Source: a virus
IMG/VR virus record: IMGVR_UViG_3300021426_000095
Location: 1 to 64,000 of that record
DNA: 64,000 nucleotides
Strand: one strand, 5' to 3'
Positions 1 through 64,000 of this stretch are shown one piece after another. The position numbers and the translations under genes are program-made. Every line of letters begins with the position of its first letter. The first letter of the stretch is position 1. The notes beneath the pieces are model-generated. The model had not been told where the DNA came from. It saw only the letters and a list, made by a program, of their open reading frames with translations, and did not search any database.

Positions 1-70
1 GTTAGTGAAGCGGTTATCACAATGGTCTGTCTAACCATTATCACGGGTTCGATTCCCGTACGCCTGGCCA
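1..70 (+). tRNA. tRNA-Asp (anticodon GTC), 5' end cut by window edge
   Basis: anticodon arm atggt-ctgtcta-accat (22-38); T-arm acggg-ttcgatt-cccgt (43-59); 3' acceptor acgcctg + g + CCA at 68-70; 5' acceptor strand would lie before position 1. Confidence 0.6.
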
Positions 71-74
71 TATC

Positions 75-159
75 CCGCGGTATTCCGTTAAAGACACGGG
101 GCAGTCTGTAAAACTGTTGCTTTAATGCTGGCTAGGAGCGTTACCTAGACGCGGGACCA
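75..159 (+). tRNA. tRNA-Tyr (GTA), long-variable-arm type, non-canonical T-loop
   Basis: acceptor cccgcgg/acgcggg (one mismatch) + a + CCA 157-159; anticodon arm gcagt-ctgtaaa-actgt; T-arm ctagg-AGCGTTA-cctag lacks the usual TTCRANT loop. Confidence 0.45.
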
Positions 160-160
160 T

Positions 161-235
161 GCGGGAGAAGCTCAACGGTAGAGCACTCGACTCATAATCG
201 ATTGGAAGCAGGTTCAACTCCTGTCTCCCGCACCA
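161..235 (+). tRNA. tRNA-Met or tRNA-Ile2 (anticodon CAT), elongator type
   Basis: acceptor gcgggag/ctcccgc + a + CCA 233-235; D-arm gctc-aacggta-gagc; anticodon loop ctCATaa; T-arm gcagg-ttcaact-cctgt; G1-C72 paired so not initiator-like. Confidence 0.75.
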
Positions 236-258
236 TCTCACTATATAAAGGATTACAT

Positions 259-1933: not shown

Positions 1934-2000
1934 ATTGAAAAGTGAATCCACACCACCTGTTTGGTCGGTTATTCATTAGTGTGGAGAAAGTGTGGTAATT

Positions 2001-2420
2001 ATGAATAGTAAAACCAAAGGTAATATTTCTGAAGCTAAAGCATTATTTGAATTTCAACGTCGTAATATTCCGGTAGCTCTTCCTTGAGGAGACAATGAAC
2101 GTTACGACATGATTGCTGAATTTGGTGGTAAATTAAATCGTATTCAAGTAAAAACTGCAAATGAAGAGAAAAATGGAAGTATTAGATGTTATTGTAGAAG
2201 TTCAAAAAATCATACTACTAATAAATCTTTAAGTACCTATGAAAATGATGTAGACTATTTTGTATTTTATAACCAAAATAGAGATATAATTGCTTTAGTA
2301 CCGATTAAAGATATTGGTAACTGTCAGACTATTTCTTTAAGGATTGAGCCAACTAAAAATGGACAAACTTCAGGAATAAAATTTTTTAAAGATTATAATT
2401 TTGATAATATTCTGCCGTAG
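2001..2420 (+). CDS. PD-(D/E)xK-type nuclease-like protein (possible freestanding homing endonuclease), one in-frame TGA
   Basis: ATG 2001; in-frame TGA at 2085-2087 (LP*GDNERYDMIAEFGGK...RIQVK looks like an E/D...K nuclease core); embedded in the tRNA array; TAG stop. Confidence 0.5.
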
Positions 2421-2763: not shown

Positions 2764-2840
2764 ATCCGTGTCGTATAATTGGAAGTATAGCTTGACTCCA
2801 AATCAAGAAGGCGTCTGTTCGATTCGGACTGCGGGTGCCA
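2764..2840 (+). tRNA. tRNA-Trp (CCA), canonical type I
   Basis: acceptor atccgtg/tgcgggt with G-U pairs + g + CCA 2838-2840; anticodon arm cttga-ctCCAaa-tcaag; T-arm gtctg-ttcgatt-cggac. Confidence 0.7.
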
Positions 2841-8205: not shown

Positions 8206-9204
8206 ATGTGAAGTAATACAACTGCGGGTAGTTGTGGTTGTGATAATTTTTCCCCTCCTCGTAATATTTATAGTACCTCTACAACATATACACCTAACAT
8301 TACAATTGATAATGGGTCTATGAAGATAGGTAATATGACTATTGATGAAGATTCTATTACATTTAATACTTCGTCTAAAGTTATGATTGATGGAGAAGAA
8401 ATAAGTGGAGACGATATTGATTTTATCCATAAATTAAAAAATTTAGGGAATTCCGCTTGTGATTGCACTTCGGCAATTCAACATATGATAGATCAACTCA
8501 CATCAAGTCCCAAATATAATAATAAAATTAAATATAATGAAAAGGAGAGTCAAGGAATGGATCTAATGAAAAATTTTAATTTTGGTCCGTGCGGTGATCG
8601 TGCTAAGATTTCACATCTTGGTATTGCGGTACAGAATAGTAATGGTGAATGGGTATCTTATGATAAAGAAAACAACGAAATTGTTAATGTTGATTTAATT
8701 AATTTTGGTTGTGATAATTTTGTTTATATGATGCCTGTTGCAATTAAAGATGTAACTGAAGGCGATGCAATTATTCATAATCGTCATGTAATGTTTGTTA
8801 CAAAGGCAAGAGGGAAGGCTATTTCTGTTATTGATGTAACAGATGGTGAGATTAAGAAAATTCTTCCTACTAAGTCTATATTTGGTTTTGATTTTGTAAC
8901 TAAGATTGTGAGTCTAATAGATTTTACAGCATCGGCCGCGGATGAAGACAATCCTTTTGGAAACATGCTCCCCTTCCTTCTATTGAATAATGATAATAAT
9001 AGGAGCAATGATGTTCTCCCTTTAGCCTTTATGCTAATGAACAAGGATGGTCAGGATGGTGGGCTATTCTCTTCTTCTATCTCCTCTACTCAGATGATGC
9101 TTATAGCTATGATGATGACAAATGGCAAGAATGGTTGCGACACACAGAATCTTTTACCACTAATGTTCCTGATGAACGAGAATACAAAGACGGCGACTTC
9201 GTAA
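8206..9204 (+). CDS. hypothetical protein (333 aa) whose second codon is TGA
   Basis: ATG 8206 after aaaggag RBS (spacing 5), immediately followed by in-frame TGA, then continuous with the ORF-track frame 8320..9204; the C-terminus is Met/Leu-rich. Confidence 0.5.
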
Positions 9205-44802: not shown

Positions 44803-44811
44803 GGAGGAAAG

Positions 44812-45411
44812 ATGCCAACATTAACGAATAGAATGAATCCGAGAGATTTTCAAGCATCTTTTCTTTCTTGTGAAAAAGATATGGAAACAATTATAAATAA
44901 GCTTTTTGTAAAAAGTAAACCTTACAGTGATATTCTTAAACGATTATTAATAATTGATCAGCCAGATTGTCTTGATCCGAGTCAAACAAAATATCAAGAA
45001 TTAATTAATGAATATTCAATTCATAAAATGAAAAATGAAGATTATATCTTAACAGTTCCAAGAATTGAAAAATTAATTCATGACAATTTTAAATCACATA
45101 TATTAATTGAATTTGATGATTTTGTTCCAACAGAAAATAATCATTATAGAGATTGTACTATTTCTTTTACTATAATATGTCCATTAGTTAAATGAGAATT
45201 AGATGATTATAAAATGCGGCACACTCAAATTGCTGGTTATATTGATGGTATTTTAAATAACTGCAAGCTTAGTGGTATTGGCACTCTTCAATTTATGGGA
45301 GCAAGTCAAGTTATTCTTGATGAAGAGCACGGAGGGATGATCATCCGTTATATCGCAACTCATGGTAATGATGATAAAGATAAATTTGAAAAAACATGAC
45401 CTCTCGAATAA
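44812..45411 (+). CDS. hypothetical tail protein, 2 TGA
   Basis: 44812 and 45214 ORFs are co-frame; TAA at 45409. Confidence 0.45.
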
Positions 45412-45423
45412 GGAGGCCTATTT

Positions 45424-46170
45424 ATGAGATTACAAGGAGATCAAATTGCTCTGTTTTTAAGTGGGCAAGATGTCCCAATTGTTGAATGTAATATAGTAAT
45501 TCATCAGCCAACTATTAAACAAATTGCAATTTTTAAAGAAACAAATTTTATTAGTGCGGTACAATTATTTAGTCAAATTGATGATAATATAGCTCGATTA
45601 CGGAAGCTTAACCCATTGACAGAACAATTTTCAGATTTTGAATTATTAATGGCTGTATTAACTCAAGATGATAAAATTAAAAAAAGTATTAATGATTTTT
45701 TTGAATTAATTTTTCCACGATATAAAATAGAAATTCGTGATAAAGATATTTGCTTTTATCAAAATGAGCAAAGAGTTGGAATTATTAATCTTTATAATTA
45801 TAAAATATTTTGTGATACAGTGGATAAATTATTTGGATTGCCGGCAGATAAGAAAAAATATAATCCAGCTAATAAAAAAGCCGAAGAACTTGTAGATAAA
45901 TTTAAAAAACGAGCTGAAATATTAGCAAAACAAAAAGGAAAAAGTGATAATTCTCCTTCTTTATATGGATCATATATTTCTATCCTTTCTGTTGGAATGA
46001 ATCTAGATATGAATATATTATTAAATTACACGCCTTTCCAATTATATGATACATTTGACCGTTATTGGAAAAAAGTTAATAGTGATTTTTATCAAAGAGT
46101 ATCTACGATGCCAATGATGGACGTATCTAAAATGAAAGAGCCAGATAATTGAACTGATAATTTATATTAA
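45424..46170 (+). CDS. hypothetical tail protein, 1 TGA
   Basis: RBS aaggaggcctatt; TAA at 46168. Confidence 0.45.
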
Positions 46171-47303: not shown

Positions 47304-47325
47304 TTAAAGAATAATTAAATATGGG

Positions 47326-47358
47326 CGCTCTCCCTCTGCGGAGGGTGCCTCTTTTTTG
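47326..47358 (+). terminator. rho-independent terminator
   Basis: ccctc-tgcg-gaggg + tgcctcttttttgtttt. Confidence 0.5.
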
Positions 47359-47374
47359 TTTTAAGGAGATATTA

Positions 47375-48904
47375 ATGCAATATATCCATATATATTTAGA
47401 CAATGCAGTACAAAAATCTAATTATCGTTTAATTCAAAATGTTAAAGCAGATATCTCTGAAAGACATATGAATCAAAAAATTCGCAGCTCTCAATTATCA
47501 AAATACCATGAAATGCGTACTAGTTTTATGGATACAACAGATTATTTAACATCTAATACAAAAAAAGAATTTGAACAATTTTTAAAAGCAATTGTTGAAT
47601 CTGCATATACTTCAACCCATATAATGGGAGGTAAAGATAAAGGTAAATTAGATTTACAAGCTGTCCAAAGAATGATCAATGAAAATAAAAAAGTTTTAAC
47701 AGAATTAAAAGCTGTTAATGTTAAAATTGAAGAAATTATTGATATTATTAACAATTTACGATCTAATGAAGTGACTTATAATTTATTAAAATATAGATTA
47801 TTATACTCTCCTGATGGTCAAATTACTGGTATTAAAATACCCGATGGTTTATATGCTGATATTGATCAAAAAATAATTAATGATGTTAAACAAAAGATAC
47901 AACAAATTGAGCAGATTGCCGCACAAATTCAGCAAGATATTCCAAAAGCATATGAAAAATTAACTTCTTTTAATCCAAATGCTGGTAGTGGTACTAAAAC
48001 GATTAAAGAAATTTTTCAATCTTTTCAAGGTTATGAAAGCGTTTATCGTGGAGCACTTTATGAACAAAGCATTTATTTGGGATATATTAACGCTGAAGAA
48101 AAAGCTATTGATGGGTTTTTAACAGCCAGAATTGATAAAAAAGAAGCTGATAAAATTTTACAAGATTCAAAATGACAACAAAACAAAGAGTTATGCCAAA
48201 AAATTAAACAAGATTTACAATCTTTTATAAATAATTATAAAAGTGGTTATGGTAAAGCTGACTTAACTTTTCATGTTTTTGATGAGAATGGTAGTTTTTC
48301 TGCTGTAGAAATGGTTAGTGTAAAAGATTCAACCTTTTCAGCATTACACCCCGAATATGGTAAAATTTTATTAGGAGGGTCTGCGAAACCTCTCTATCAA
48401 TTGTTAGATAATAAATTGCTTTCAGAGCTTCTTGATGGACAAGATCCTCGCTATTATGCTTTACAAACTTTTGCTGGTATTGGTGGTTCTACTTTTAAAA
48501 AAATTCCAAGACCACATTCAAAAAAAATTACTGCAGACATGGCAAATAAAAGTTTTAAAACATTGGTTGAAGCTGCGGGTATTTTAAATTTTATTGATTA
48601 CTTAGTAGGTTCTGGGAAATATGGTGATACTGCTACCTATTTTGCTGTAAATGGCAAATTGTATGAGATGGCTTCAGTATTAAGAAACGCCTTACGAAAT
48701 ATAAATTCAATATCTTTTACAATTCCAGCTTCATTAAAAAGAAATGATACTAGAGCAAAATCTTTACAAGCACAAGCTTTTAGTGAAACAGATAAAGATG
48801 GTAGTGATAGAAGTGATTATTTAATAAATCATTTTGAATCAATTTTTTCAGGTATGTTACAAGCTAAATTAAAAATTGGTTTATTATCAAGATTAGCAAA
48901 ATAA
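47375..48904 (+). CDS. hypothetical tail protein (509 aa), 1 TGA
   Basis: ATG 47375 after aaggagat; co-frame with track ORF 48311 via TGA 48173. Confidence 0.45.
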
Positions 48905-49499: not shown

Positions 49500-49529
49500 T
49501 TGACAAATGCTGTTAATTCATGGTATAAT
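49500..49529 (+). promoter_or_regulatory. promoter TTGACA-N18-TGgTATAAT upstream of the suppressor tRNA and lysis genes
   Basis: -35 49500-49505, -10 49524-49529, leader gaaaggaggaaaa. Confidence 0.55.
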
Positions 49530-49551: not shown

Positions 49552-49725
49552 TTGATTATAGCTGAATGTAATTTAAATCAATTAATTAATTTAGAATCAA
49601 TATTATTTGCGGCTGAGTGAGATAATAATCCACATATTCCTTCTTTTAATATTAAATGTGATAATGAATTATATAACTATAAAGTTATTAAAGCTTTTGG
49701 GAAATATAGAATTGTTACAAATTAA
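49552..49725 (+). CDS. possible 57-aa protein (TTG start, 1 TGA)
   Basis: TTG 49552 after aaaggagga (short spacer); TAA 49723; weak. Confidence 0.25.
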
Positions 49726-49728
49726 TAT

Positions 49729-49825
49729 ACCCCTCTCGCCTATCGGTATGGCCTCGGTCTTCAAAACCGAAAGTGGGCTGTGTCCAAAGCAGTCTTGCGG
49801 GGTTCGACTCCTCGGAGGGGTGCCA
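49729..49825 (+). tRNA. opal-suppressor tRNA (anticodon TCA, reads UGA), type II with long variable arm, G73, CCA encoded
   Basis: acceptor acccctc/gaggggt + g + CCA 49823-49825; D-arm gcc-tatcggtat-ggc (close to tRNA-Ser); anticodon arm tcggt-ctTCAaa-accga; 27-nt variable arm with ggctg/cagtc stem; T-arm cgggg-ttcgact-cctcg. Confidence 0.7.
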
Positions 49826-49863
49826 TACATATAGTCATTGTTTTAAGCAATGTTAAGATATAA

Positions 49864-49899
49864 AGGTTTACTAGTTTGACTAGTAAACCTTTTCTATTT
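49864..49899 (+). terminator. hairpin + T-run after the tRNA
   Basis: aggtttactagt-ttg-actagtaaacct + tttctattt. Confidence 0.45.
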
Positions 49900-49914: not shown

Positions 49915-50394
49915 ATGGAAGAAAGTACTCCAAAACATGAGATGCAAGAAAATATAAGAGGGACTATTAAAATATCAGATTTTCGTCCTAAAAATCTTCA
50001 TCCAAAAGCAAAAATGCGTGTATTACTATCTATTTTAGGAACATTTTTAATTATATTTGGATGTTTCTATATGCTTTCAATGACGCCTTTTTATTTTGAA
50101 CTAAATTTAGATACTTCAATTGGATTATCTAATTTCTTCTCTGATGCAGTATTTTTTAGTTATATTATTGGAAGTATTCTTGTAATTTTTATTTTATGAT
50201 ATGTAATGATTAAAGATTGTCCAATTTCTCCTGCTGCAAAAGCTAATTATGAAGCTTCACATGATAAATCTATAAAAGGTGTTAAAGTTGTTGCTGCACT
50301 TGCTTTTGCTATAGCTAATAAAGGAACAGGTGATAGTATTGAATCTATAGCGACTGCTGTTGATGATTATTTTACTGTTGAAGAAGAAAAATAA
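49915..50394 (+). CDS. holin-like membrane protein, 1 TGA
   Basis: ATG 49915 after aaggaggtaatttat; 2-3 TM; track ORFs 49876 and 50206 are co-frame via TGA 50197. Confidence 0.5.
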
Positions 50395-50413: not shown

Positions 50414-51418
50414 ATGGCTAATATTGCGAATGTTGCTGCACAAATTCATGCAAATATGTGTAATGATTCAGGATTTGGTTATTCTTGAGGCGAACGTTAT
50501 GGTACGTGAAATGATCCTGTAACATGGAATATTGAAGGTCAAAACTATACTATCGCTCGTGGAGATTATGATTGTAGTTCTTCTGTCTGTACGGCTTGGC
50601 AAACAGCTCTTAAAGGAACTTCTTATGAAGGAGCTTTAGATGGTGCGACATATACTGGAAATATGCGTTCGGTCTTTGTTAATTCTGGGTTATTTGATGT
50701 TTGGGATACTAATTCTACCTCTGCTGTCCGTGGTGATGTTTATCTAAATGATAATAAGCACACCGCAATGTGTCAAGATGGCGGTAATGATGGTGTATAT
50801 GGATATGATGCTTTATCAGAATTCTGCATCAATGAATTTGGTGAAGTGTATGGCGGACAACGTGGTGATCAAACTGGCGGTGAATCCCACATTACAGGAT
50901 ACTATAACTATCCTTGGAGCTGCAGTTTACACTATAACGGAAAAGCTGACACAACTAAACGCCAAGATGACAACCGTAGACATAATGTTATTATGTGGCA
51001 TTCTCATGGTAAAAAGAATCAGCGTTGGCAGCTAGAAAAGAAAGCCGAAGGCTTATACGCTATTAGAAATAAAGCTGATGGATATTATCTTGATGTTAGC
51101 GGAAAAGAAGATAAAGATGGCGCAGAAGTTATTCTTTGGTCTGAGTATAACGGCGGTAAAAACCAACTTTGGAAATTAGATCCAGTAGAAGGGAAGAAAG
51201 GCTGTTATTTCATTGTATCTGCAATGAATGGTGCTCGTGTTCTTGATGTTGTTTCAGAATCTCAAGATGAAGGCGCAACACTTTGCATTTATAAACGGAA
51301 GACAAAGAACACCGCAAATCAAGAATGGTATTTCTTAAAGAATAATGATAATACTAAAACAATTATCAACAATGGTAAAGGACCTAAGATGGCACTTGAT
51401 GCATCTGGTCAAGCTTAA
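50414..51418 (+). CDS. endolysin: N-terminal cysteine-peptidase/amidase-like domain + C-terminal ricin-type (QxW)3 beta-trefoil, 2 TGA
   Basis: ATG 50414 co-frame with track ORF 50663; NQRWQL, NQLWKL, NQEWYF repeats; Cys in DCSSSVCTAWQ; TGAs at 50486 and 50510. Confidence 0.55.
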
Positions 51419-51540: not shown

Positions 51541-52035
51541 TTAAAATGCACTCCTATTCTGATTCAATTCTATTAGTCCAGCTTTACCGATACAAATAGC
51601 ATCTGCGGAATCTGATGTAAAATTTCCATTATATTCTTGTTGTACCCATTTTAAAGCAGCTTGTTTTTGTTCTTCTCGCTTACGGCCTCAGTTGATTTTG
51701 TATTTATCTTTTAGTATTTTTCGTCAATGACTTGGAGATAAAACATTATATTTAATACCACCACGATTTCTACACCATAACATAATTACAGACTGAACAT
51801 AACATAAACGTTTATAAGTATCTAAATTAACTTGTTTTTGTGTATCTTCAAAGAATACATATCCTATATTATATTGTTGATCTAATTTAGTTAATTCTTG
51901 TTGAATTGTATAAAGTCTTTCTTCTATTGAATCTGATGCTTTTGTTGAAAAAGTTCCTCATTTAACTAGTTTATCATTGTCAAAAATGGCATAACCGCTA
52001 GTTTGAAGAGCTTGATCTAATGCTAAATAAAACAT
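51541..52035 (-). CDS. RuvC-like Holliday-junction resolvase, in-frame TGA codons
   Basis: revcomp from ATG 52035: MFYLALDQALQTSGYAIFD ... SDSADAICIG (RuvC/YqgF fold motifs); 495 nt in frame to TAA at 51541; 3 in-frame TGA. Confidence 0.55.
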
Positions 52036-53501: not shown

Positions 53502-54038
53502 TTATTCAAAGACAATAACAGGAATTTCACTGTTTTTTGTTGCTTGTAAATCAATAATTTGTTGATTAGAAGACCCTCTCCAAGGTAGCGTTAAATTTTT
53601 TTGACTTTGTATAAAAGGGCCACAAACAAGATAATCTGCATATTTAAAAGTTACAAATAGTTTATCTGGTTTTATTTTTTTTCTTATTTCTTGGAGTTCA
53701 TCTCAAGTATATCCTGTCCATATCCATATTTTAATATCAGGCCAATTAGATTTAATTGTACATAAAATATAATTTAATTGATGAAGGTTATCTATAACTA
53801 ACGGTTCTCCTCCAAGAACACTAAATCGAGTAATATAGCTTGGTTTTAATGCTTTGTATATTTGAGATTCTTGATAACTAGTTAATTCTTTTCCACCATT
53901 AAAATCCCATGTTTCAGGATTGAAGCATCCTTCACAATGAATTGGGCATCCTTGAGTAAATAATGACACGCCCCATCCTAATCCATTTGTACATTCACAA
54001 GTATTTATACTACTATATCTCATTTTGACTCCCATCAT
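53502..54038 (-). CDS. nrdG: anaerobic ribonucleotide reductase activating protein NrdG (radical SAM), 1 in-frame TGA
   Basis: CxxxCxxC-type cluster CPIHCEGC; WIWTGYT*EEL...LPWRGSSNQ closely parallels E. coli NrdG (WVWTGYKLDEL...LIWRGSSNQ); reading continues through TGA 53703-53705 to TAA 53502. Confidence 0.7.
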
Positions 54039-56924: not shown

Positions 56925-57146
56925 TTATTCCTTTTCAGGTGGATTAGGATTAGCTGTTCCATTAATCATAAAACCGCACTTAGGACAAAAATGCATCAAT
57001 CCTCAAGACCAGCTTAAATTAGCATGACAATTTCCACAGTACTCTTTATCAATAAATCAATTACCATGTCCAAATTCATCTTTTTGTCAATCATAAAATC
57101 TTTGTGTTTGCGGTGCATTGATATTTACTACATATTCTTCTTGCAT
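56925..57146 (-). CDS. 73-aa zinc-ribbon protein with 4 in-frame TGA
   Basis: MQEEYVVNINAPQTQRFYD*QKDEFGHGN*FIDKEYCGNCHANLS*S*GLMHFCPKCG... Confidence 0.4.
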
Positions 57147-57173: not shown

Positions 57174-57422
57174 TTAATTATTTTTATATACATCTTTATA
57201 AGTAATAGGAGTTCCACCCATACGGAACTCCTTACCGGTTTCAATTACAATAAGAGTAGGCACTCCTGCATAACTCCAAGTTAAATCCCATATATCTTCA
57301 ACTATTTTTTCAGGATGACAACAAGCAACTCTTTTTTCTTCGATAGCTTTTTGAAGCCAAAGAGGAAAGTTATAAAATTTTTGTTCTTCATGATTGTACT
57401 GAATATGATAAGGTTCTTGCAT
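57174..57422 (-). CDS. thioredoxin/glutaredoxin-like small redox protein (possible NrdH-type)
   Basis: 82 aa; CCHP near a helix N-terminus; C-terminal TLIVIETGKEFRMGGTPI; context next to nrdDG. Confidence 0.4.
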   Translation of the reverse strand: MQEPYHIQYNHEEQKFYNFPLWLQKAIEEKRVACCHPEKIVEDIWDLTWSYAGVPTLIVIETGKEFRMGGTPITYKDVYKNN

Positions 57423-60400
57423 TATTCCTCCTCAGTTTCGCCCCATCTACGATTAGTCATATTAATACTGCCATCTTGATGAATTTCAGTTATTTTATAT
57501 AATTGATGTGATTTTGATCGTTTATAACTCTTTGTTACAAATTGATTCTGACGACGGTAACCATTTACAACAACTAAAGTTCCACGTTTAAACCAACCCT
57601 TTTCCATCACGTGCTTTTTGCCATCAATACCGACCTCAGATAATTGAGCATTATATCTTGCATAATAATCACGAGTCATTTTAACAGTTACAACACCGCT
57701 ATTTTTTGTTAAAATACTTATTGATGATTTCAAATCATCTTTTGCAATTACTGTACCGCATAATCTAAATGTCTTAAAAATAGGAATTTCTCTGCCATTA
57801 CGCTTAAAAGTATAATCAATAATTGGTTGTTCTGGTAATGTATTATATTCAACAATGCCATACTGACTATCATTAACATTAATCAATTCGTGATCATGAT
57901 AATAAAAACCAAGAGAGGCCATTTCCCATGTACTTAATGATCCAGCCGCGTATTTATTCCATTCCTCTTGGAATAATGAACTATTTAATTGCTCTAATAA
58001 TTCTTCTTTATGTGCGGTGATGTATTGTTTTGCTGGGAGCATAGCCTTGTCATACAAAGTTTTCCATTTTGTTTCCGATATACACAACAAATTGTCTTTT
58101 GGTTCGAGGAGGTCTGTGTCAAAAAATTCTTGATAGAATTCATAATAGTTATTTGATACTGAAAAAGTTCCATTACCTACCTTACAATTTTTCTTTAATG
58201 CTTTATTGAATACAAATACTCGTTTTTGAAAATTAAGTTCTTGCGGCAAGAGTCCTCGTTCATTTAACATATTAAAATTTTGCATTGTAATACGTTTTTT
58301 AGGACTACAGGTGGTCCATAAATATTCTTTCATCACATTCTCACGAGTATCAAATTGATCAAACGCACCTGCTTTAATTAATGCAATCATTACAGTCTTA
58401 TTGCATTTAACTTTTTCCATAAATTCATACATATCTTCATATGGTCTATTAGCAATAATTTCTTCAATAATTTCTCCACCGACACCATTTAGGGCTTTAA
58501 GACCAAAACGAATTGCATTATGTTCTTCATCTGGTTCAAACATATAACCAGATTTATTAATGTCAATTAATGATACATTTACTCCATGAGAAATAATATC
58601 ACCAACACCACGAGCAATTTTATTATAATTAGAACTTGCGTCTGCATCAAGACCACTAATTACTCGAAGATATGCTGTATTCCAATAGATAGATGGATAA
58701 TAAGATGAAAGATATGCTGCTTGACAAGCAATTAATGAATAACTATATCCATGAATACGACTAAATGAATAACTTGCTTGCGGCATGATAACATAATCCC
58801 AAATATATTGCCCTAAAATTGGGCGTTTTGCTCTTGAGATAATTTTATCTTTTAATTCAGATACCTTATCCATTTGTTTTTTAGCAACAATTTTACGTGC
58901 AGCGTTACTTTCTGCGAGAGTAAAACCGCATGTGTCAGGATCCATCAAAATTGTCATTAATACTTCTTGTGAGGATGGTGCTCCATAATCAATTAACATA
59001 TATTTTTCAAGAACTTTTTGCTCTTCTTTTGTCAGACCGATATTATCCATTTCTCTATACCATTGAGAAATATCATTCTTTAAACGCTCATATCTATCTG
59101 CAGGACGTTCCGCGCCTTTTTCACCAGTTAATCGCATAAGAGCATTACAAGCTGTTAATTCTTCTACATTTCTAGGAAGCAATTGCCGCACAACATTACC
59201 ACCAACCGCTGTATTAAGTTGGAATAATGCTAAAACATTTGTACTATCAATAACATCCCAAAGTTTATCATCTTTTAATGGAAGTTTATCTGGATGGACA
59301 TATTTATCATATGCTTGCCGCAATGTTAAATCTTTATCCATATACCCATTCTCTTGGAGTAGTTGAATACATTGTGCGACAATATCCATTTGTTCTGTAA
59401 CAAGAAAATCATATTTTACATCGCCACAATATTCAGCATCATGAAGTGAATATTGTGTAATAATTGCACCACTTGTTGCTTTCATAAAACATGCTGTATC
59501 ATATGGATCATCACTATAAAAAACAACACCAGATGCATGGATACCTCTAGATACAACTAATCCTTCAATACCCATAATAATATCTAATAATCCGGGATAT
59601 TGATTAATTGTATTAATAAAAATTTTATTTGGTTTACGCCCTTTTTCTTTATTTCCATTAACAACATCATTAATAGGCCAAAGGAAACCACGTTCAGATG
59701 GAATTAAAGATGATAAATATAAAGCTGTATCATTATCAATACCGTCTTTATATTCTTCTGTTTGATAACCTCGACAGGCGATCTGAACAGCACTTTTAGT
59801 TGTTGCTGTTCCAAATGTGCAAACTTGAACACATCCTAATTCGCCACGTTCTTCACGAATTTTTTTAAAAATATCTTCTCTTTTAGATGGACTTAAATCT
59901 AAATCAATATCAGGCATTTCAACACGATCTTTATTCATATAACGCCAAAAAGGGGCATTGGTTTTAATGGGATCTGTTTGTGTAATACCTAATAAGTAAT
60001 GATTTAATCCAGCACCAGCTGATCCACGACCAGCACCTACAGGACTTCCACATTCCCAGAATAAATTAATATAGTGTTGAAGAAAATTGGGATATGCAAA
60101 AACGCATGTTCCTAAATTTTTCCCAATATGGTCTTTAATATCTGCTTCATACTCGAGTCTTTCTAAATATTCATCGTTTAATAGACTTAGTTCATCGAGT
60201 TTATTGATACATTCATTAACCCAATATCGTTCTTGGTTATTTGTTGACCACAATAACTTTTTTAAGGTTGGATATTTATCATCACCAGAACGATTTCCCC
60301 TACGATAATATGGTACATCAACTTCTAAGACATGTTGATTCCTTGCAAGACTATAATCTTGAATTTTATTATAAATTTCTAAAGTATTAGCTTCAAGTTC

Positions 60401-61243
60401 ATTATAATCTAATCCAGTTCCTTCAAGATTATTAATCACATCTTCTGTTGATTGAAGATAAGCATATTCATAAAATTCATCGACTTCACGCTCCCCGCCT
60501 TTACTATTAAGAAATGCTTTATGAACCCATCTATCTTCTTTTTTAAGATAATGAGCATCAGTTGTAACAATAATCTTAATATCAAATGCAGCTCCAATAG
60601 AACCCATCATTTTATTAACTGTCATTTGTTCTTTTGAACGTGCGGGCTGAACTTCAAGATAAAAATTATCGTTGAATAATTGTTTATTCCAAGAAAGAAA
60701 ATCAACAATTTTTTGATATGTCTCTTCTTCAGTAACACTATCTCCAACTTTACGAGCTTTGTAAAGTTCAAGAATAAGGCCGTCTAATTCTGAACCTAAA
60801 CATGCGGTTAATGCAATCAGATGGTCTTGTCCATATTTATTCACTATTTCTTCGAGTTCAGATTTTAAAGTTGGAACTCGTTCCATGCCTCGATCAAAAT
60901 AACTATTAATCCAAGCTGTAGACGATAATTCTCGCAACATTTTATGACCAATTGCATCACATGCAATTAAAATATAGTGCCAATATCGTTGACCAGATTT
61001 ACGTTCATCTACAAGATAAATTTCATTACCACGGACTATTTTAAAATCTGGATTTGTCTTTTTATATTTATTAATTAAACGATCGAGCTCAACATGACTA
61101 GAAAGACTTTCATGATCAGTAATTGCAATACCTACTAAATCAAGTTCAATTGCTTGCTTAATTAAATCTTCTGGACGATTAATACTATCCAGTAATCTAA
61201 TATTACTATACATAGTATGACTATGACATTCAAATCGTCCCAT
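57422..61243 (-). CDS. DNA polymerase III alpha-subunit-like replicative polymerase (PHP domain N-terminus)
   Basis: 1273 aa; N-terminal PHP signature FECHSHTMYS...GIAITDHE; size and architecture of DnaE/PolC catalytic subunit. Confidence 0.75.
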   Translation of the reverse strand: MGRFECHSHTMYSNIRLLDSINRPEDLIKQAIELDLVGIAITDHESLSSHVELDRLINKYKKTNPDFKIVRGNEIYLVDERKSGQRYWHYILIACDAIGHKMLRELSSTAWINSYFDRGMERVPTLKSELEEIVNKYGQDHLIALTACLGSELDGLILELYKARKVGDSVTEEETYQKIVDFLSWNKQLFNDNFYLEVQPARSKEQMTVNKMMGSIGAAFDIKIIVTTDAHYLKKEDRWVHKAFLNSKGGEREVDEFYEYAYLQSTEDVINNLEGTGLDYNELEANTLEIYNKIQDYSLARNQHVLEVDVPYYRRGNRSGDDKYPTLKKLLWSTNNQERYWVNECINKLDELSLLNDEYLERLEYEADIKDHIGKNLGTCVFAYPNFLQHYINLFWECGSPVGAGRGSAGAGLNHYLLGITQTDPIKTNAPFWRYMNKDRVEMPDIDLDLSPSKREDIFKKIREERGELGCVQVCTFGTATTKSAVQIACRGYQTEEYKDGIDNDTALYLSSLIPSERGFLWPINDVVNGNKEKGRKPNKIFINTINQYPGLLDIIMGIEGLVVSRGIHASGVVFYSDDPYDTACFMKATSGAIITQYSLHDAEYCGDVKYDFLVTEQMDIVAQCIQLLQENGYMDKDLTLRQAYDKYVHPDKLPLKDDKLWDVIDSTNVLALFQLNTAVGGNVVRQLLPRNVEELTACNALMRLTGEKGAERPADRYERLKNDISQWYREMDNIGLTKEEQKVLEKYMLIDYGAPSSQEVLMTILMDPDTCGFTLAESNAARKIVAKKQMDKVSELKDKIISRAKRPILGQYIWDYVIMPQASYSFSRIHGYSYSLIACQAAYLSSYYPSIYWNTAYLRVISGLDADASSNYNKIARGVGDIISHGVNVSLIDINKSGYMFEPDEEHNAIRFGLKALNGVGGEIIEEIIANRPYEDMYEFMEKVKCNKTVMIALIKAGAFDQFDTRENVMKEYLWTTCSPKKRITMQNFNMLNERGLLPQELNFQKRVFVFNKALKKNCKVGNGTFSVSNNYYEFYQEFFDTDLLEPKDNLLCISETKWKTLYDKAMLPAKQYITAHKEELLEQLNSSLFQEEWNKYAAGSLSTWEMASLGFYYHDHELINVNDSQYGIVEYNTLPEQPIIDYTFKRNGREIPIFKTFRLCGTVIAKDDLKSSISILTKNSGVVTVKMTRDYYARYNAQLSEVGIDGKKHVMEKGWFKRGTLVVVNGYRRQNQFVTKSYKRSKSHQLYKITEIHQDGSINMTNRRWGETEEE

Positions 61244-61310
61244 ATAACCTCTTTCTAATACATCCCTTTATTTAAATATATTATAACATAAAATTTTACA
61301 TTTGTCAAAA

Positions 61311-61562
61311 CTATCCATATAACTCATATACTTTAATATTTGCAATATCACATTTATCTAAAAGATCAAGGCTACAAAATTCCCAGTAGTCTTTATCTTT
61401 AGAATATCCGCGGCCTTCATCACAAGCATAGCCAAAACCAACCCAATTATCAACTCCAGCTTGTTCTAATCGCAAATAAAATTCAGCATCATCTAAAAGT
61501 CTTTCAAGATCTTTAGCTTTTATAGTTACATATTTTTCATAATTGCTCATTAAAACACCCAC
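61311..61562 (-). CDS. hypothetical small protein
   Basis: ORF between the polymerase and the RecJ-like gene. Confidence 0.45.
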   Translation of the reverse strand: MGVLMSNYEKYVTIKAKDLERLLDDAEFYLRLEQAGVDNWVGFGYACDEGRGYSKDKDYWEFCSLDLLDKCDIANIKVYELYG

Positions 61563-63292
61563 TTAGTTTCTAAAATATAATCGTCAATAAATCCTTCTCC
61601 GCTTACTTGTCCTTGCCATTCATTCTTACTAGGTGAAACAATACAGGTCATATAAGTATTCGATTGAAGTAGTTCTTTATATTGATCTTCATCAATCCCA
61701 AATTTAACAAGCACTAATCCATTCGGTAATATCATGCGGAGAGTGTTATTTTTAGCACCGCATAAACGTATTTGACATTGACTTAAATCAATATTTTCAA
61801 TAGCAACTTGACTTGCGGGCATATCTTGTCCCCAAAAATTACTCATTTCCGCGAGCTCTAACAGTTTATCAGGACTAGCATCTGTCATATTCCAAATATA
61901 ATCAACCCAATATACAGCTTCTTTTGGGACATTCTTATATTTTTCATTCATCATTGTGATAAATGTATTAAGATTACGTTCTGCTATTCCAAAACCATGA
62001 GCATTACCATGTCCTTGTGCATATTCAATAAGTCCAGTAGATTCTTCAACAGCTTTTAGATCAGTAACTTCGCTCATACTATAATTGCGGCCAGAACCTC
62101 TATAATAATATTCATCATCATCTTTAGTTTTACTTTTAGTTAACACTAAACATGGACGTTGATATTTACTAGCAAGTTTATTCGCGGCAAGACCTCTAAT
62201 ATTGGGTTCTACCTCACCAGGTTCACAACAGCATACTAAAATACTGTTATCAAGAAGATGCTGTGCTGCAATCTTCTTTTCTAAAAGAACCATAGATTCT
62301 GTTTCTAACTTGGTTTGACGTCTTTTAATTGCACTTGTAAGATAAGCAGCTTGCTGATACAAAGGCCATTTCTCACCTTTATGTCCTCTTTTGGTGTTAG
62401 GAACTTTTTCAAAGCACCAAGGTTTGCACATAGCTCTAAAGACCATATCTTTTTCTTCTTGAGTACCAGATCGAACTGTCGCATTAATAAATGGTACAAC
62501 TGCAAAAGCAATAGCTTTATAACAATATTGACCACCATACTTATTTAAAGTATATTCATTTGTTTCAAGTAATTCATTGAAAAATGGATTTGTTACATGA
62601 TGTAATCCTTCTAAGATAACAGCTTTAGTCTCTATTGATCTAAAGCTCATCATGTCTCCACAATTTCCAAGAGCACATAAATCTAATCCCTCATCACCCT
62701 TAGTTCCATTAATAAAATTAAAAGCTCTACAAAATTGCCAAACTACGCCAGCACCACTAAATTCTTTGTTTGGATAATCACATAATTGATTATTAATAGT
62801 AACTATATTTTTAAATTCTGATATGCGCGGTGCTTCATGATGGTCAAGGATAATTATATCTATACCTTTATAAAACCAGTATTCATGTTCTTCATAATCA
62901 TTACTTGCACTATCTGGACAAATTATTAATTCTACACCTTCTGGAATGCTATCTCGCATATCAACCAAACCATGTTGTTTACCAGTATGATGCAAATAAG
63001 TTAGATGTTCGTTTACCCAGTCAGGATAAAGACTATAGAGGAAATTAATTAAAATTGCAGCGGAGGTATAACCATCAACATCACAATCCACGATGATACA
63101 AGTATCTATATTATTTTTAATTGCAAATGTTAAATTATAAACAGCTATTTCTATATTATTAAAAGCATTCCAAGGAGTTACATCTGCCATACTTGCTTTT
63201 AGCCATTTATCTATATTATTAATTCCTCTACCATATAATACTTGTTCAATTGATGTATTGTATATTTGTTTTAAATATGTTTTATATTTCAT
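61550..63292 (-). CDS. DHH-family (RecJ-like) phosphoesterase/exonuclease
   Basis: motifs IIVDCDVDGYTSAAIL and IILDHHEAP (DHH). Confidence 0.65.
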   Translation of the reverse strand: MKYKTYLKQIYNTSIEQVLYGRGINNIDKWLKASMADVTPWNAFNNIEIAVYNLTFAIKNNIDTCIIVDCDVDGYTSAAILINFLYSLYPDWVNEHLTYLHHTGKQHGLVDMRDSIPEGVELIICPDSASNDYEEHEYWFYKGIDIIILDHHEAPRISEFKNIVTINNQLCDYPNKEFSGAGVVWQFCRAFNFINGTKGDEGLDLCALGNCGDMMSFRSIETKAVILEGLHHVTNPFFNELLETNEYTLNKYGGQYCYKAIAFAVVPFINATVRSGTQEEKDMVFRAMCKPWCFEKVPNTKRGHKGEKWPLYQQAAYLTSAIKRRQTKLETESMVLLEKKIAAQHLLDNSILVCCCEPGEVEPNIRGLAANKLASKYQRPCLVLTKSKTKDDDEYYYRGSGRNYSMSEVTDLKAVEESTGLIEYAQGHGNAHGFGIAERNLNTFITMMNEKYKNVPKEAVYWVDYIWNMTDASPDKLLELAEMSNFWGQDMPASQVAIENIDLSQCQIRLCGAKNNTLRMILPNGLVLVKFGIDEDQYKELLQSNTYMTCIVSPSKNEWQGQVSGEGFIDDYILETKWVF

Positions 63293-63495
63293 TAATTTTC
63301 AATCACATCCTCTGCTTTATACCATTGGCACACACAGCCACGTAAAGGCCAGACATTTATATTAATATATTTATCTTTTAAAACGCATTTATCACAGCTT
63401 ATAGAACATAAAAATGCTTTAGTTATATGTTTTCTATATTTGCAATATCTGCATCGCTTATGTCTATGACGATACGTCATTAAATTATTATCCAT
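63292..63495 (-). CDS. small zinc-finger protein
   Basis: CRYCKYRK ... CSISCDKC. Confidence 0.45.
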   Translation of the reverse strand: MDNNLMTYRHRHKRCRYCKYRKHITKAFLCSISCDKCVLKDKYININVWPLRGCVCQWYKAEDVIEN

Positions 63496-64000
63496 TTGGA
63501 ACCAGCCTATTTTCCCATAAATTTAAAAATACTTCACGACCATCATCTGTAGGACTGTGTTTATACCCTGTTAAACCTTTTGTGTCTAACATAAAACTTA
63601 TATTACAAGATGGAGAATATTTTTGATACATTTTTTCCATTTTCTTTAACACTTTTATATATTCTTCATCATATAGATTATTAAAATCTCTATCAACACC
63701 GATACAAATTTCTTTAGCGCCGGCATCTAAAAGAAGATGGAATTGATAATTGGATAGGGTGCTGCCGCACATACCAACAGCAATATTATTTTTCAATCCG
63801 AGATAACCGATTGATTGTAAAACAGCTTTTTCAGATTCAAATACCATCGCTACACCGATTTCTTTGATACGTTCTTTGGCTTTATTTAAACCATATAAAT
63901 TAAATGATAATGGATGATTTGCTAATTTACCGCCGATCTTTATTGGTCTATATTTTCCATATACTTCATTCTCTTGGACAAGAGTTCTTTCTCTAATTCC
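63488..64000 (-). CDS. DNA primase (TOPRIM domain), N-terminal part lies beyond the window
   Basis: KEICIGVDRD toprim DxD; reading frame continues upstream of M63847 to the window end with no stop. Confidence 0.55.
   Translation of the reverse strand, partial: GIRERTLVQENEVYGKYRPIKIGGKLANHPLSFNLYGLNKAKERIKEIGVAMVFESEKAVLQSIGYLGLKNNIAVGMCGSTLSNYQFHLLLDAGAKEICIGVDRDFNNLYDEEYIKVLKKMEKMYQKYSPSCNISFMLDTKGLTGYKHSPTDDGREVFLNLWENRLVPNG

What the first reader, a model, noticed from the sequence alone, without database searches (positions are those of the whole stretch)
1..64000. TGA is never a stop and appears in-frame in about 20 genes, while other genes use only TGG for Trp
Every stop I checked, more than 70 genes, is TAA or TAG. 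In-frame TGA occurs in the PD-(D/E)xK nuclease (2085), the 8206 gene (codon 2), the Zn-finger protein 19083-20636 (11 TGA), most late genes between 33.3 and 50.5 kb (terminase, portal, tail genes, holin, endolysin), and in minus-strand RuvC, NrdG and a Zn-ribbon protein. The TGA-split fragments in the ORF track are always co-frame. Major capsid, major tail, NrdD, polymerase, NadR/PnuC and all GC-island genes instead have zero TGA and use TGG. In NrdG the TGA aligns with L/F of E. coli and T4 NrdG (WTGYT*EEL), and contexts are often aromatic (DY*IYF), which favours Trp. The heterogeneous usage and the encoded tRNA(UCA) are what is reported for lineage-specific stop-codon recoding in phages, rather than a uniformly code-4 genome.
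Basis: partly seen in the sequence, partly recalled or inferred. Interest (0 to 1): 0.85.

Follow-up and report, generated by a model that had tools for sequence, protein, structure and literature searches.

The report
Phage reads TGA as tryptophan
This is part of a large SPbeta-like phage genome that reads the stop codon TGA as tryptophan, mainly in its late genes, which is a known phage strategy, but its TGA-reading tRNA carries an unusual extra arm that copies the normal tryptophan anticodon loop.

Summary
In my curated set of 83 genes the stops are TAA 60, TAG 23 and TGA 0. Twenty genes contain 52 in-frame TGA codons, and domain or family matches run across them.

In about 120 related loci that use the standard code, the window's TGA positions align to Trp 578 times out of 1034, then Tyr, Phe and Leu. 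This is the same profile as the window's own TGG codons. Gly, Ser, Cys and Sec are excluded.

Usage is strongly uneven. TGA/(TGA+TGG) is 32/61 in the late block at 33.3-51.4 kb, 8/200 elsewhere and 0/52 in the early GC-rich island. The HK97-fold capsid gene has none, here or in any recoded relative.

Only the closest clade and one other clade of relatives are recoded. About 40 relatives use TGG at these positions and end 14% of the orthologous genes with TGA.

It matches published work (Borges et al., 'Agate'-type phages), so the recoding itself is a new member of a known kind.

One thing looks new. The tRNA(UCA) at 49729-49825 has a Trp-type acceptor end (A1-U72, G73). Its long variable arm is a hairpin whose 7-nt loop is N-U-CCA-A-N, a copy of the tRNA-Trp anticodon loop. 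This architecture recurs in dozens of phage contigs.

The parts
49729..49825 (+). Suppressor tRNA(UCA), 97 nt. Acceptor stem 7 bp with A1-U72, G73 and an encoded CCA end; anticodon U34C35A36 at 49761-49763; T arm 5 bp.
   Evidence: ARAGORN calls it 'tRNA-SeC(tca)'. The Rfam tRNA model scores 40.5 bits with a 25-nt insertion in the variable region. The minimum-energy fold is a five-arm cloverleaf.
49775..49795 (+). Variable arm of the tRNA: a 7-bp stem (GGGCUGU/GCAGUCU) with the 7-nt loop G-U-CCA-A-A. The CCA is at 49784-49786. It copies a tRNA-Trp anticodon stem-loop.
   Evidence: Fold. In the family alignment A1 the stem covaries and the U-CCA-A loop is invariant or nearly so. 26 of 33 loops are 7 nt with CCA at loop positions 3-5.
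49500..49529 (+). Consensus sigma-70 promoter with an extended -10 (TTGACA-18-TGnTATAAT, 12 of 12 matches), upstream of the tRNA unit.
49552..49725 (+). Small ORF of 57 codons behind a strong ribosome-binding site (AAAGGAGG), with an in-frame TGA at codon 23. It ends 3 nt before the tRNA. Function unknown.
49862..49892 (+). Intrinsic terminator-like hairpin (14 bp plus a T run) directly after the tRNA and before the holin ribosome-binding site.
49915..50394 (+). Putative holin or membrane protein of the lysis cassette, 1 in-frame TGA and no TGG. The start was moved to the ATG behind AAGGAGG.
50414..51418 (+). Endolysin (ELLD plus ricin-B lectin domains), TGA at codons 25 and 32, 9 TGG.
   Evidence: The Pfam and PHROG matches span both TGAs.
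33320..34417 (+). First gene of the late block, phrog_5767 ('sigma factor') with a C-terminal Zn-ribbon. 5 TGA, 3 TGG. A near-consensus promoter lies at 33239-33268.
   Evidence: The PHROG match covers residues 29-357. Aligned codons in relatives are listed. Promoter.
34432..35643 (+). phrog_3314 protein (YonG_N in relatives), 3 TGA, 1 TGG.
   Evidence: TGA at codon 198 aligns to TGG 37 times out of 38.
35643..37400 (+). Large terminase, 5 TGA, 1 TGG.
   Evidence: TGA at codon 299 aligns to TGG 41 and TGA 4.
37864..39447 (+). Portal protein, 2 TGA, 1 TGG.
   Evidence: TGA at codon 99 aligns to TGG 48 and TGA 2.
39450..40805 (+). YonD-like head protein, 1 TGA, 2 TGG.
41407..42468 (+). Major capsid protein (HK97 fold, YonB family), 0 TGA and 4 TGG. 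It also has 0 TGA in every recoded relative.
   Evidence: AlphaFold model with pLDDT 76; Foldseek hits are all phage capsid or encapsulin proteins. Recoded relatives give 0 TGA / 28 TGG and 0 TGA in L343-L346.
43133..46170 (+). Five head-tail and tail genes (43133-43597, 43597-43911, 43924-44802, 44812-45411, 45424-46170) with 11 TGA and 1 TGG in total.
47321..48904 (+). Late protein of 527 aa, 1 TGA, no TGG, no relatives found.
19083..20636 (+). Cys/His-rich repeat protein, 11 TGA and 3 TGG. It is the main TGA-bearing gene outside the late block.
   Evidence: In a contig 98% identical at the nucleotide level (SRR873599), codon 300 is TGG where the window has TGA.
1992..2420 (+). PD-(D/E)xK endonuclease, TGA at codon 32.
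   Evidence: The Pfam PDDEXK_5 match covers residues 4-137, E = 2.6e-31.
8206..9204 (+). Gene whose ATG, behind GAAAGGAG, is followed at once by TGA (codon 2).
51541..52035 (-). RuvC-like resolvase, 3 TGA, 2 TGG.
   Evidence: TGA at codon 104 aligns to TGG 22 times out of 41.
53502..54038 (-). NrdG activase, 1 TGA, 6 TGG.
   Evidence: The Fer4_12 match covers residues 18-162. The aligned residues are Tyr, Leu, Phe or Trp.
56925..57146 (-). Small double-zinc-ribbon protein, 3 TGA, 1 TGG.
57422..63292 (-). Replication genes that are compatible with the standard code: DnaE-type polymerase (0 TGA / 19 TGG) and RecJ (0/12).
21260..32617 (.). GC-rich island (42-47% GC) of 19 small genes. Each is a cassette with a repeated promoter and a hairpin terminator. 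Together they have 0 TGA and 52 TGG; stops are TAA 9 and TAG 10. It is probably an early module.
2764..2840 (+). Ordinary phage tRNA-Trp(CCA) with anticodon loop CUCCAAA, A1 and G73.

Best explanation
The window comes from a large SPbeta-like phage, probably about 130-140 kb, that most likely infects a Firmicutes host using the standard code. In this phage lineage TGA has been lost as a stop codon and reused as a tryptophan codon.

The phage supplies its own decoder, a tRNA(UCA) with tryptophan-type acceptor identity. The tRNA has its own consensus sigma-70 promoter and terminator, directly upstream of the lysis genes.

Genes needed first contain no TGA. These are the early cassette island, DNA replication and nucleotide metabolism. 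The host machinery can therefore translate them unaided.

Most packaging, head-tail, tail and lysis genes contain TGA. So do a few others, including the sigma-like first gene of the late block. They give full-length protein only once the suppressor tRNA has built up enough to compete with release factor 2. The most abundant structural protein, the capsid protein, avoids TGA.

Shown: TGA is read through, it stands for Trp, its distribution is uneven, the recoding is lineage-specific, and the tRNA is present.

Inferred: the timing role, competition with RF2, charging by the host TrpRS, and the suggestion that the CCA-bearing variable arm gives TrpRS a tryptophan anticodon to recognise.
For: Read-through: family matches span the TGAs, and 19083-20636 stays open for 517 codons despite 11 TGAs.

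Identity: the TGA-aligned residues in standard-code relatives match the TGG profile, and Trp wins by more than 1500 nats. Many columns are nearly pure TGG, for example 48 TGG to 2 TGA. There are TGA/TGG polymorphisms between near-identical contigs.

No TGA stops: 0 of 83 genes here, against 14% in orthologues of standard-code relatives and 1 of 89 in recoded relatives.

Uneven use: 32/61 in the late block against 8/200 elsewhere, Fisher 5e-17. The capsid gene has 0/28 in recoded relatives, against 29/14 for the sigma-like gene.

Lineage-specific: with four more recoded relatives.

tRNA. Promoter and terminator.

Host type: there are 25 near-consensus promoters, most with an extended -10, and none lies inside 33.3-48.9 kb. 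Ribosome-binding sites are strong. The structural genes belong to the YonB/YonD/YomU families, and the nearest cultured relatives infect Enterococcus, Staphylococcus and Bacillus.

Published precedent.
Against: - No proteomic or expression data exist, so the timing model is inference.
- The tRNA's promoter looks like the early promoters, so the tRNA may be made from the start of infection. Gating would then depend on accumulation only.
- Seven TGAs sit in RuvC, NrdG and a Zn-ribbon gene on the replication arm, and 13 sit in three left-arm genes. The early/late split is therefore not clean.
- The host is not identified.
- Only 64 kb of the genome was seen, so a phage TrpRS, RF1 or a second suppressor tRNA may lie elsewhere.
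- Counts across relatives are not phylogenetically independent.
Confidence: 0.92

Rival explanations
1. The host itself uses genetic code 4, as Mollicutes do, and the phage simply follows its host's code.
For: TGA is never a stop and codes for Trp. The genome is AT-rich, 33% GC.
Against: TGA makes up only 4% of Trp codons outside the late block and 0 of 52 in the early island, whereas code-4 genomes use TGA throughout. About 40 relatives in the same family use TGA as a stop in 14% of orthologues. The phage carries its own tRNA(UCA) as well as a tRNA-Trp(CCA). Cultured relatives infect standard-code Firmicutes.
Confidence: 0.03
2. TGA is decoded as another amino acid: Sec or Ser (suggested by ARAGORN's 'SeC' label, the long variable arm and G73), Gly (code 25) or Cys.
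For: ARAGORN calls the tRNA SeC. A long variable arm together with G73 is the SerRS identity set (established knowledge; for allo-tRNAs and Sec-like tRNAs).
Against: The aligned residues are W 56%, S 2%, G and C under 1%. The tRNA has a 7/5 acceptor/T architecture, a short D stem and A1-U72, not the 8/5 form with a 6-bp D stem of bacterial tRNA-Sec. The window's copy has C2-G71, which is listed as a SerRS antideterminant in E. coli tRNA-Leu. Fifty-two sites in 20 unrelated proteins cannot all carry SECIS elements.
Confidence: 0.02
3. The TGA-interrupted genes are pseudogenes, or the TGAs are assembly or sequencing errors.
For: Under code 11 the late genes fall into fragments.
Against: Only TGA interrupts these genes, never TAA or TAG, and the fragments are always in the same frame. 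The same genes carry TGA in independent assemblies from other samples (L001-L006 and L343-L346). The positions are conserved Trp sites.
Confidence: 0.01
4. This concerns the tRNA's extra arm only. The CCA-bearing hairpin may not be a TrpRS identity element. It could be a relic of a duplicated anticodon arm, a decoy or binding site for another factor (an anticodon nuclease, a modification enzyme or a T-box leader), or just a stabilising class-II-type arm.
For: No biochemical data exist. The geometry of a variable arm differs from that of the anticodon arm. Some genuine bacterial selC genes (Caulobacteraceae, Bryobacterales) also have UCCAAA in the variable-arm loop. Fifteen phage tRNA(UCA) genes in the same scan have an ordinary short variable loop, so the arm is not obligatory.
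Against: A neutral relic would not keep U-CCA-A invariant while the stem covaries across sequences with different acceptor, D and anticodon stems. The motif goes with the Trp-type acceptor end (25 of 28) and not with Sec-like tRNAs (4 of 23), Fisher 4e-7. C34, C35, A36 and G73 are the main bacterial TrpRS determinants.
Confidence: 0.5

Closest known systems
TGA-to-Trp recoded gut and rumen phages, especially the 'Agate' clade (Borges et al. 2021/2022, bioRxiv 10.1101/2021.08.26.457843)
   Same: Large genomes (about 127-154 kb) in phages predicted to infect Firmicutes. [quoted passage not shown] TGA is nearly absent as a stop. Close relatives use the standard code. The phages encode a suppressor tRNA.
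   Different: I could not test whether the window belongs to the Agate clade itself, because no Agate sequence was available. The paper does not describe the tRNA architecture, does not mention a variable arm, and does not report that the capsid gene avoids TGA.
'Code-change module' of Jade phages (same paper)
   Same: The suppressor tRNA lies directly upstream of a lysis cassette whose genes contain in-frame TGA (window 49500-51418).
   Different: Jade also encodes TrpRS and RF1 in the module. No such genes are present in this 64-kb window.
phAss-1 / Phassvirus (PMC10607447)
   Same: It belongs to the same broad family: capsid protein 44% identical, 136 kb, relatives of Enterococcus phage EF1, and a predicted Clostridia host. 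It uses stop-codon recoding with suppressor tRNAs and has no phage aaRS.
   Different: phAss-1 recodes TAG to Gln using tRNA(CUA). The window recodes TGA to Trp.
Genetic code 4 of Mollicutes and many mitochondria
   Same: TGA codes for Trp and is read by a tRNA-Trp(UCA).
   Different: In those genomes the reassignment is genome-wide and RF2 is absent. Here it is confined to part of a phage genome, and the tRNA has an extra arm.
Class II tRNAs, tRNA-Sec and allo-tRNAs (PMC5389517)
   Same: A long, base-paired variable arm, and in some cases an opal (UCA) anticodon with G73.
   Different: The phage tRNAs keep a 7/5 acceptor/T architecture and a normal D arm with A1-U72. Their variable-arm loop is a conserved 7-nt N-U-CCA-A-N. 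In tRNA-Ser it is the size of the extra arm, not its sequence, that is the identity element.
Anticodon-stem-loop mimics that bind aminoacyl-tRNA synthetases outside tRNAs (thrS operator, yeast aaRS-mRNA sites, the HIV-1 tRNA-like element)
   Same: In each case a hairpin that copies the cognate anticodon loop recruits the synthetase (titles and abstracts; established knowledge for thrS).
   Different: Those mimics sit in mRNAs or viral genomes and regulate or sequester the enzyme. Here the copy sits inside a decoding tRNA, where it could supply identity in cis. This is inference.

Membership tests
Stop-codon-recoded phage, TGA to Trp (Borges-type) | In-frame TGA inside genes whose homology continues across the codon | tested here: met
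   PHROG and Pfam matches span the TGAs in the terminase, portal, endolysin, PD-(D/E)xK nuclease and NrdG.
Stop-codon-recoded phage, TGA to Trp (Borges-type) | TGA positions correspond to Trp in homologues | tested here: met
   W 578/1034, the same profile as TGG codons, and Trp is best by more than 1500 nats. Codon table.
Stop-codon-recoded phage, TGA to Trp (Borges-type) | TGA is not used as a terminator | tested here: met
   0 of 83 genes, against 14% in orthologues of standard-code relatives. One small unverified ORF cannot be excluded.
Stop-codon-recoded phage, TGA to Trp (Borges-type) | Recoded codons are concentrated in structural and lysis genes, while early and replication genes are compatible with the standard code | tested here: met
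   32/61 against 8/200, and 0/52 in the island. Exceptions are RuvC, NrdG, the Zn-ribbon protein, 1992, 8206 and 19083.
Stop-codon-recoded phage, TGA to Trp (Borges-type) | A phage-encoded suppressor tRNA for the recoded codon | tested here: met
   tRNA(UCA) at 49729-49825.
Stop-codon-recoded phage, TGA to Trp (Borges-type) | The host uses the standard code | not testable with these tools
   The host is unknown. This is inferred from standard-code relatives, Firmicutes-type promoters and cultured relatives on Enterococcus, Staphylococcus and Bacillus.
Uniform code-4 genome | TGA is used as a Trp codon throughout, regardless of gene class | tested here: not met
   TGA share of Trp codons is 4% outside the late block and 0% in the island; polymerase 0/19.
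Code 25 (TGA = Gly) or selenocysteine insertion | TGA aligns with Gly, or with Cys/Sec, in homologues | tested here: not met
   Gly 3 and Cys 4 out of about 1000 aligned codons. Neither is among the top candidates.
Bacterial tRNA-Sec (ARAGORN's label for the tRNA) | 8-bp acceptor stem with 5-bp T stem, 6-bp D stem with a 4-nt loop, and G1-C72 | tested here: not met
   7-bp acceptor, 5-bp T stem, 3-4-bp D stem with a normal loop, and A1-U72. The Sec-like tRNAs found in the same scan form a separate group without the CCA loop.
Bacterial tRNA-Trp | G73 discriminator and an A1-U72 first pair | tested here: met
   The sequence is ACCCCUC...GAGGGGU-G-CCA. The determinants are taken from PMC9976931.
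Bacterial tRNA-Trp | C34-C35-A36 anticodon | tested here: not met
   The anticodon is UCA. A CCA triplet in a 7-nt loop is present, but in the variable arm.
Bacterial tRNA-Trp | Charged with tryptophan by TrpRS | not testable with these tools
   This needs an aminoacylation assay. It is supported indirectly by TGA = Trp.
SPbeta-like phages | A structural gene set of the YonB (capsid), YonD, YonG, YomW and YomU (tube) families in the same order, on a genome of about 130-140 kb | tested here: met
   The precomputed Pfam labels are on orthologues that are 72-94% identical and syntenic. Relatives' contigs are 130-185 kb. The labels are on the relatives; the local Pfam copy lacks these models.

The most novel reading that the evidence does not exclude
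The window's suppressor tRNA belongs to a class of phage tRNA-Trp(UCA) that appears to be undescribed. In this class the variable arm is a conserved copy of the tRNA-Trp anticodon stem-loop: a 4-7-bp stem with the 7-nt loop N-U-CCA-A-N. The real anticodon arm (UCA) would read UGA on the ribosome. The second arm would present the CCA triplet that bacterial TrpRS uses as a main identity element. A host synthetase could then charge a stop-codon reader efficiently without any phage-encoded TrpRS. That would answer the question Borges et al. left open, namely how recoded phages get their suppressor tRNAs charged.
Probability: 0.4. Interest if true: 0.85.

Novelty: new variant of a known kind. Interest (0 to 1): 0.55.

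Why it matters
The recoding itself adds a well-documented case to a known phenomenon. It is an SPbeta-like, probably Firmicutes-infecting lineage in which close relatives use the standard code, a sister group (phAss-1) recodes TAG, and the capsid gene is kept free of the recoded codon.

It has a practical consequence. Annotation under code 11 breaks the late genes into fragments. PHROGs already holds separate families for the N- and C-terminal halves of this terminase.

The larger potential value is the tRNA. If the CCA-bearing variable arm really supplies TrpRS identity, it would be a natural way to separate what a tRNA reads from what it is charged with. That would explain how phages switch a host's code with a single small gene. 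It would also give a ready design for engineered opal suppressors.

Tried and rejected
- Megablast of the late block against GenBank phages found only a 144-nt match.
- IMG/VR searches found no relatives for the 47321-48904 protein or the 19083-20636 protein, and only a fragment for the endolysin. The tRNA's neighbourhood could therefore not be compared in the closest relatives.
- The exact 3' half of the window's tRNA occurs in only one IMG/VR contig.
- Four further relatives fetched through the capsid protein are recoded but have no tRNA at the syntenic place.
- The 5.8-billion-protein search for the Cys/His-rich protein found only a 97% identical copy that had already been translated with code 4. 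That is not independent evidence, apart from one TGA/TGG polymorphism.
- Pfam gave nothing for the late proteins, and PDB sequence searches gave nothing for the capsid or tube proteins. The capsid identity was settled by structure prediction instead.
- A crude coding-density comparison (code 4 against code 11 against TAG read-through) is insensitive. The window itself gains only 0.12 against 0.09. Among the 35 dual-arm tRNA loci other than the window, about 9 show a clear gain specific to code 4.
- My first greedy code-4 ORF set was wrong in the GC island, where it picked spurious plus-strand ORFs. I replaced it by hand.
- Rfam searches of the gene-poor stretches 4.25-6.35 kb and 20.6-23.5 kb found nothing beyond tRNAs.
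- The base after TGA shows only a weak deficit of T (6 of 52, against a 22% background), which is not convincing.
- Five literature searches found no description of a CCA-bearing variable arm. The library lacks most subscription journals, so prior description cannot be excluded.

Full report
**What the window is.** The window is 33% GC and carries a cluster of tRNA genes at its left end. On the plus strand it has a left arm of small genes with NadR-like, PnuC, SPFH and GT8 functions. A GC-richer island follows at about 21-32.6 kb. A plus-strand block at 33.3-51.4 kb holds packaging, head, tail and lysis genes. A minus-strand arm holds RuvC, dUTPase, NrdG, NrdD, guanylate kinase, a DnaE-type polymerase and RecJ. 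Orthologues in related contigs carry the Pfam families YonB, YonD, YonG, YomW and YomU, which are the structural genes of Bacillus phage SPbeta. Relatives in IMG/VR are contigs of 130-185 kb. The nearest cultured relatives of the capsid protein are Enterococcus phages (34% identity) and SPbeta-like Staphylococcus phages. The uncultured phAss-1 is 44% identical.

**Checking the observation.** I built code-4 ORFs. I then corrected them by hand where that set was wrong, mainly in the GC island, using table-11 ORFs and paralogy, and moved starts using ribosome-binding sites. The curated set has 83 genes with stops TAA 60, TAG 23 and TGA 0, and 52 in-frame TGA codons in 20 genes. The stop count is circular for the genes that contain TGA. 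For the 63 genes without a credible in-frame TGA the stop is TAA or TAG under any code. Orthologous genes in standard-code relatives end in TGA 44 times out of 316. At that rate, zero in 83 has a probability of about 4e-6. Three TGAs or TGA pairs close to annotated starts (12420, 14634, 57174) lie upstream of better starts and are artefacts. The ATG-TGA at 8206 sits behind a strong GAAAGGAG site and is probably real.

**Read-through.** Family matches run straight across the TGAs. These include PDDEXK_5 over residues 4-137, Fer4_12 over 18-162, the endolysin domains, the portal family over 56-523, the phrog_5767 match over 29-357, and both halves of the terminase.

**Which amino acid.** I fetched 50 loci related through the portal and 80 through NrdD. 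I aligned the window's proteins to them with the TGA positions masked and read the subject codons directly. At the late-gene sites covered by the portal-related loci the aligned codons are TGG 583, TGA 84, Tyr 79, Phe 47, Leu 41, Ser 20, Cys 4 and Gly 3. Several columns are almost pure TGG, for example 48 to 2. Using only relatives that do not themselves use in-frame TGA, the TGA-aligned residues are W 578/1034, Y 130, F 63 and L 63. The window's TGG codons give W 1604/3015, Y 397 and F 212. A likelihood built from each amino acid's own substitution profile puts Trp more than 1500 nats ahead of Tyr, the runner-up. In a contig 98% identical at the nucleotide level, codon 300 of the Cys/His-rich gene is TGG where the window has TGA. 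RuvC codon 104 aligns mostly with TGG. The single NrdG site aligns with Tyr, Leu, Phe or Trp, so it is compatible but weak on its own.

**Uneven use.** TGA/(TGA+TGG) is 32/61 in the 33.3-51.4 kb block. It is 8/200 in the rest of the window once the 19083 gene and the start artefacts are set aside (Fisher 5e-17), and 0/52 in the GC island. Within the late block, the protein at 41407-42468 has none. I confirmed it as an HK97-fold capsid protein by structure prediction and Foldseek. In recoded relatives it is 0/28, and the neighbouring scaffold-like gene is 0/9. By contrast the sigma-like gene is 29/14, the next gene 18/6 and the terminase 22/10. Four more relatives repeat this pattern.

**Early genes and promoters.** The GC island is a row of single-gene cassettes, each with a repeated promoter and a hairpin terminator. 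Twenty-five near-consensus sigma-70 promoters, most with an extended -10, are spread over the left arm, the island borders and the right arm. None lies inside 33.3-48.9 kb. This fits early genes being transcribed by the host polymerase and translated with the host code.

**Lineage specificity.** Of the 50 portal relatives, only the closest clade (L001-L006) and a second pair (L011, L047) use in-frame TGA. For example, L002 has 26 TGA to 26 TGG and L047 has 38 to 23. About 40 others have 0 or 1. Recoded relatives have 1 TGA stop in 89. A more distant member of the family, phAss-1, recodes TAG to Gln.

**The suppressor tRNA.** ARAGORN reports a 97-nt 'tRNA-SeC(tca)' at 49729-49825. Rfam's tRNA model matches it at 40.5 bits with a 25-nt insertion in the variable region. 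The whole-window scan had missed it. It folds into five arms:
- a 7-bp acceptor stem with A1-U72, G73 and an encoded CCA end;
- a short D arm;
- an anticodon arm with loop CUUCAAA;
- a 7-bp variable arm with loop GUCCAAA;
- a 5-bp T arm.

It is not a tRNA-Sec, because it lacks the 8/5 architecture and the 6-bp D stem. No other tRNA in the window has a UCA anticodon. The gene has its own 12-of-12 promoter at 49500-49529 and a terminator at 49862-49892. It lies directly upstream of the holin and endolysin, both of which contain TGA. Borges et al. describe a similar position for the 'code-change module' of Jade phages.

**The extra arm is a family trait.**
- A pattern that fixed only the UCA anticodon stem-loop and the T loop found 93 IMG/VR stretches, with 66 distinct tRNA(UCA) sequences. 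Fifteen are of normal length and 51 have a long variable arm.
- Of the long ones, 29 carry CCAAA in the variable arm, and 35 under a looser U-CCA-A/U pattern. The motif goes with a Trp-type acceptor end (25 of 28). It is largely absent from the G1-starting tRNAs, most of which are Sec-like (4 of 23; Fisher 4e-7).
- In an alignment of 33 such tRNAs, RNAalifold recovers the cloverleaf plus a variable-arm helix with compensatory changes. Fifteen, 8, 1 and 8 sequences changed on both sides at its four pairs. U-CCA-A in the loop stays invariant or nearly so.
- Twenty-six of 33 loops are exactly 7 nt with CCA at positions 3-5. Eleven are CUCCAAA, the anticodon loop of the window's own tRNA-Trp(CCA) and of E. 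coli tRNA-Trp (the E. coli sequence is from memory). Stems are 4-7 bp, most often 5.
- A second pattern without the stem constraint found 79 stretches and 26 further tRNAs with other anticodon stems.
- In species-representative bacterial genomes the Trp-like form turns up only in a few gut-associated bins and one Bacteroides scaffold. Some true selC genes also have UCCAAA in that loop, which is a caveat.
- Alignment A1 was selected for the motif, so loop conservation within it is partly by construction. The unbiased figures are those.

**How it most likely works.** The following points are shown: TGA is translated, it means Trp, it is absent as a stop, it is concentrated in late and lysis genes, and a phage tRNA(UCA) with Trp-type acceptor features exists.

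The following points are inferred. The tRNA is charged by the host TrpRS. It competes with RF2. TGA-containing genes are translated efficiently only once it has accumulated. These include the sigma-like first gene of the late block, which has five TGAs behind a host-type promoter. The capsid gene avoids TGA because its output must be maximal.

Bacterial TrpRS relies on G73, A1-U72 and the anticodon bases C34, C35 and A36 (review PMC9976931). A UCA anticodon removes one of these determinants. The conserved CCA loop in the variable arm is therefore best read as a substitute anticodon for the synthetase. I rate this at about 0.4-0.5. The geometry is untested, and decoy or other binding roles remain possible.

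**Comparison with what is known.** The recoding matches Borges et al. in every testable respect and resembles their Agate clade in genome size, host phylum and pattern. I could not test membership of that clade. That paper reports suppressor tRNAs detected in only 35% of code-4 phages. It suspects non-canonical structures and leaves charging by host synthetases as an open question. It does not mention a variable arm. Five literature searches found no description of the dual-arm tRNA, but the library is incomplete.

**Verdict.** The recoding is a new member of a known kind. The tRNA architecture is a probable new variant, and it is the part worth following up.

Noticed in passing
window 5393-5465 (+): A tRNA-like gene (Rfam tRNA 37.3 bits; ARAGORN 'tRNA-???' with a two-base anticodon). 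Where the anticodon loop should be there is a GGCCC-GCAA-GGGCU hairpin, that is, a GNRA tetraloop. It cannot decode in the normal way.
   Followed up: partly
window 49552-49725 (+): A small ORF of 57 codons sits behind a consensus promoter and an AAAGGAGG ribosome-binding site. It has an in-frame TGA at codon 23 and ends 3 nt before the tRNA(UCA). It could be a leader whose translation senses suppressor level, but this was not tested.
   Followed up: partly
window 8195-8211 (+): A strong ribosome-binding site is followed by ATG and then immediately TGA. Under the standard code this is a start-stop pair, and under the phage code it opens a 332-codon gene.
   Followed up: partly
window 21260-32800: The GC-rich island (42-47% GC) consists of single-gene cassettes with repeated promoter modules (TTGACT...TAATATACTAAG, then GGAGG) and repeated GC-rich hairpin terminators. 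It contains paralogous gene pairs (24076-24774 with 28358-29068; 23441-23806 with 26375-26878 and 25116-25436). TAG is used unusually often as a stop (10 of 19).
   Followed up: partly
window 20993-21160 and 22397-22812 (+): Tandem near-identical consensus promoters (two at 21002/21110, three at 22397/22626/22765) lie in a stretch of about 1.2 kb with no convincing ORF. They face the minus-strand island genes. Rfam finds nothing there.
   Followed up: partly
PHROG families phrog_15503 and phrog_24618 (matched by window 35643-37400): The N-terminal and C-terminal halves of this terminase match two separate PHROG families of 'unknown function'. This suggests that reference databases hold fragments of recoded (or intron-split) terminases translated with code 11.
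   Followed up: no
L056 15964-16035 and L057 9263-9334: Two phage contigs related through NrdD carry a tRNA with anticodon UUA, a putative TAA (ochre) suppressor.
   Followed up: no
L006; L011 and L047: L006 (71% portal identity) has only 7 TGA against 35 TGG, so it looks like an intermediate stage. L011 and L047 (59% portal identity) are heavily recoded, while L009 and L010, at the same portal identity, are not. This suggests that TGA recoding arose or was lost more than once in the family.
   Followed up: partly
L343 4109-4378; L344 4519-5067 and 14934-15779: Relatives carry HNH/NUMOD4 and LAGLIDADG homing-endonuclease genes inside the terminase and tail-tube regions. These genes are absent at the same places in the window.
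   Followed up: no
L226, L229/L252, L248, L263, L266, L268, L285 (genome contigs): Trp-like dual-arm tRNA(UCA) genes occur in bins labelled Phoenicibacter, Coriobacteriia, Parabacteroides, Gemmiger (identical sequence in the last two), Bacteroides neonati (a 1.48-Mb scaffold), Treponema and Bacilli. They are probably phage or prophage DNA. The Bacteroides scaffold could give a host link for that subgroup.
   Followed up: no
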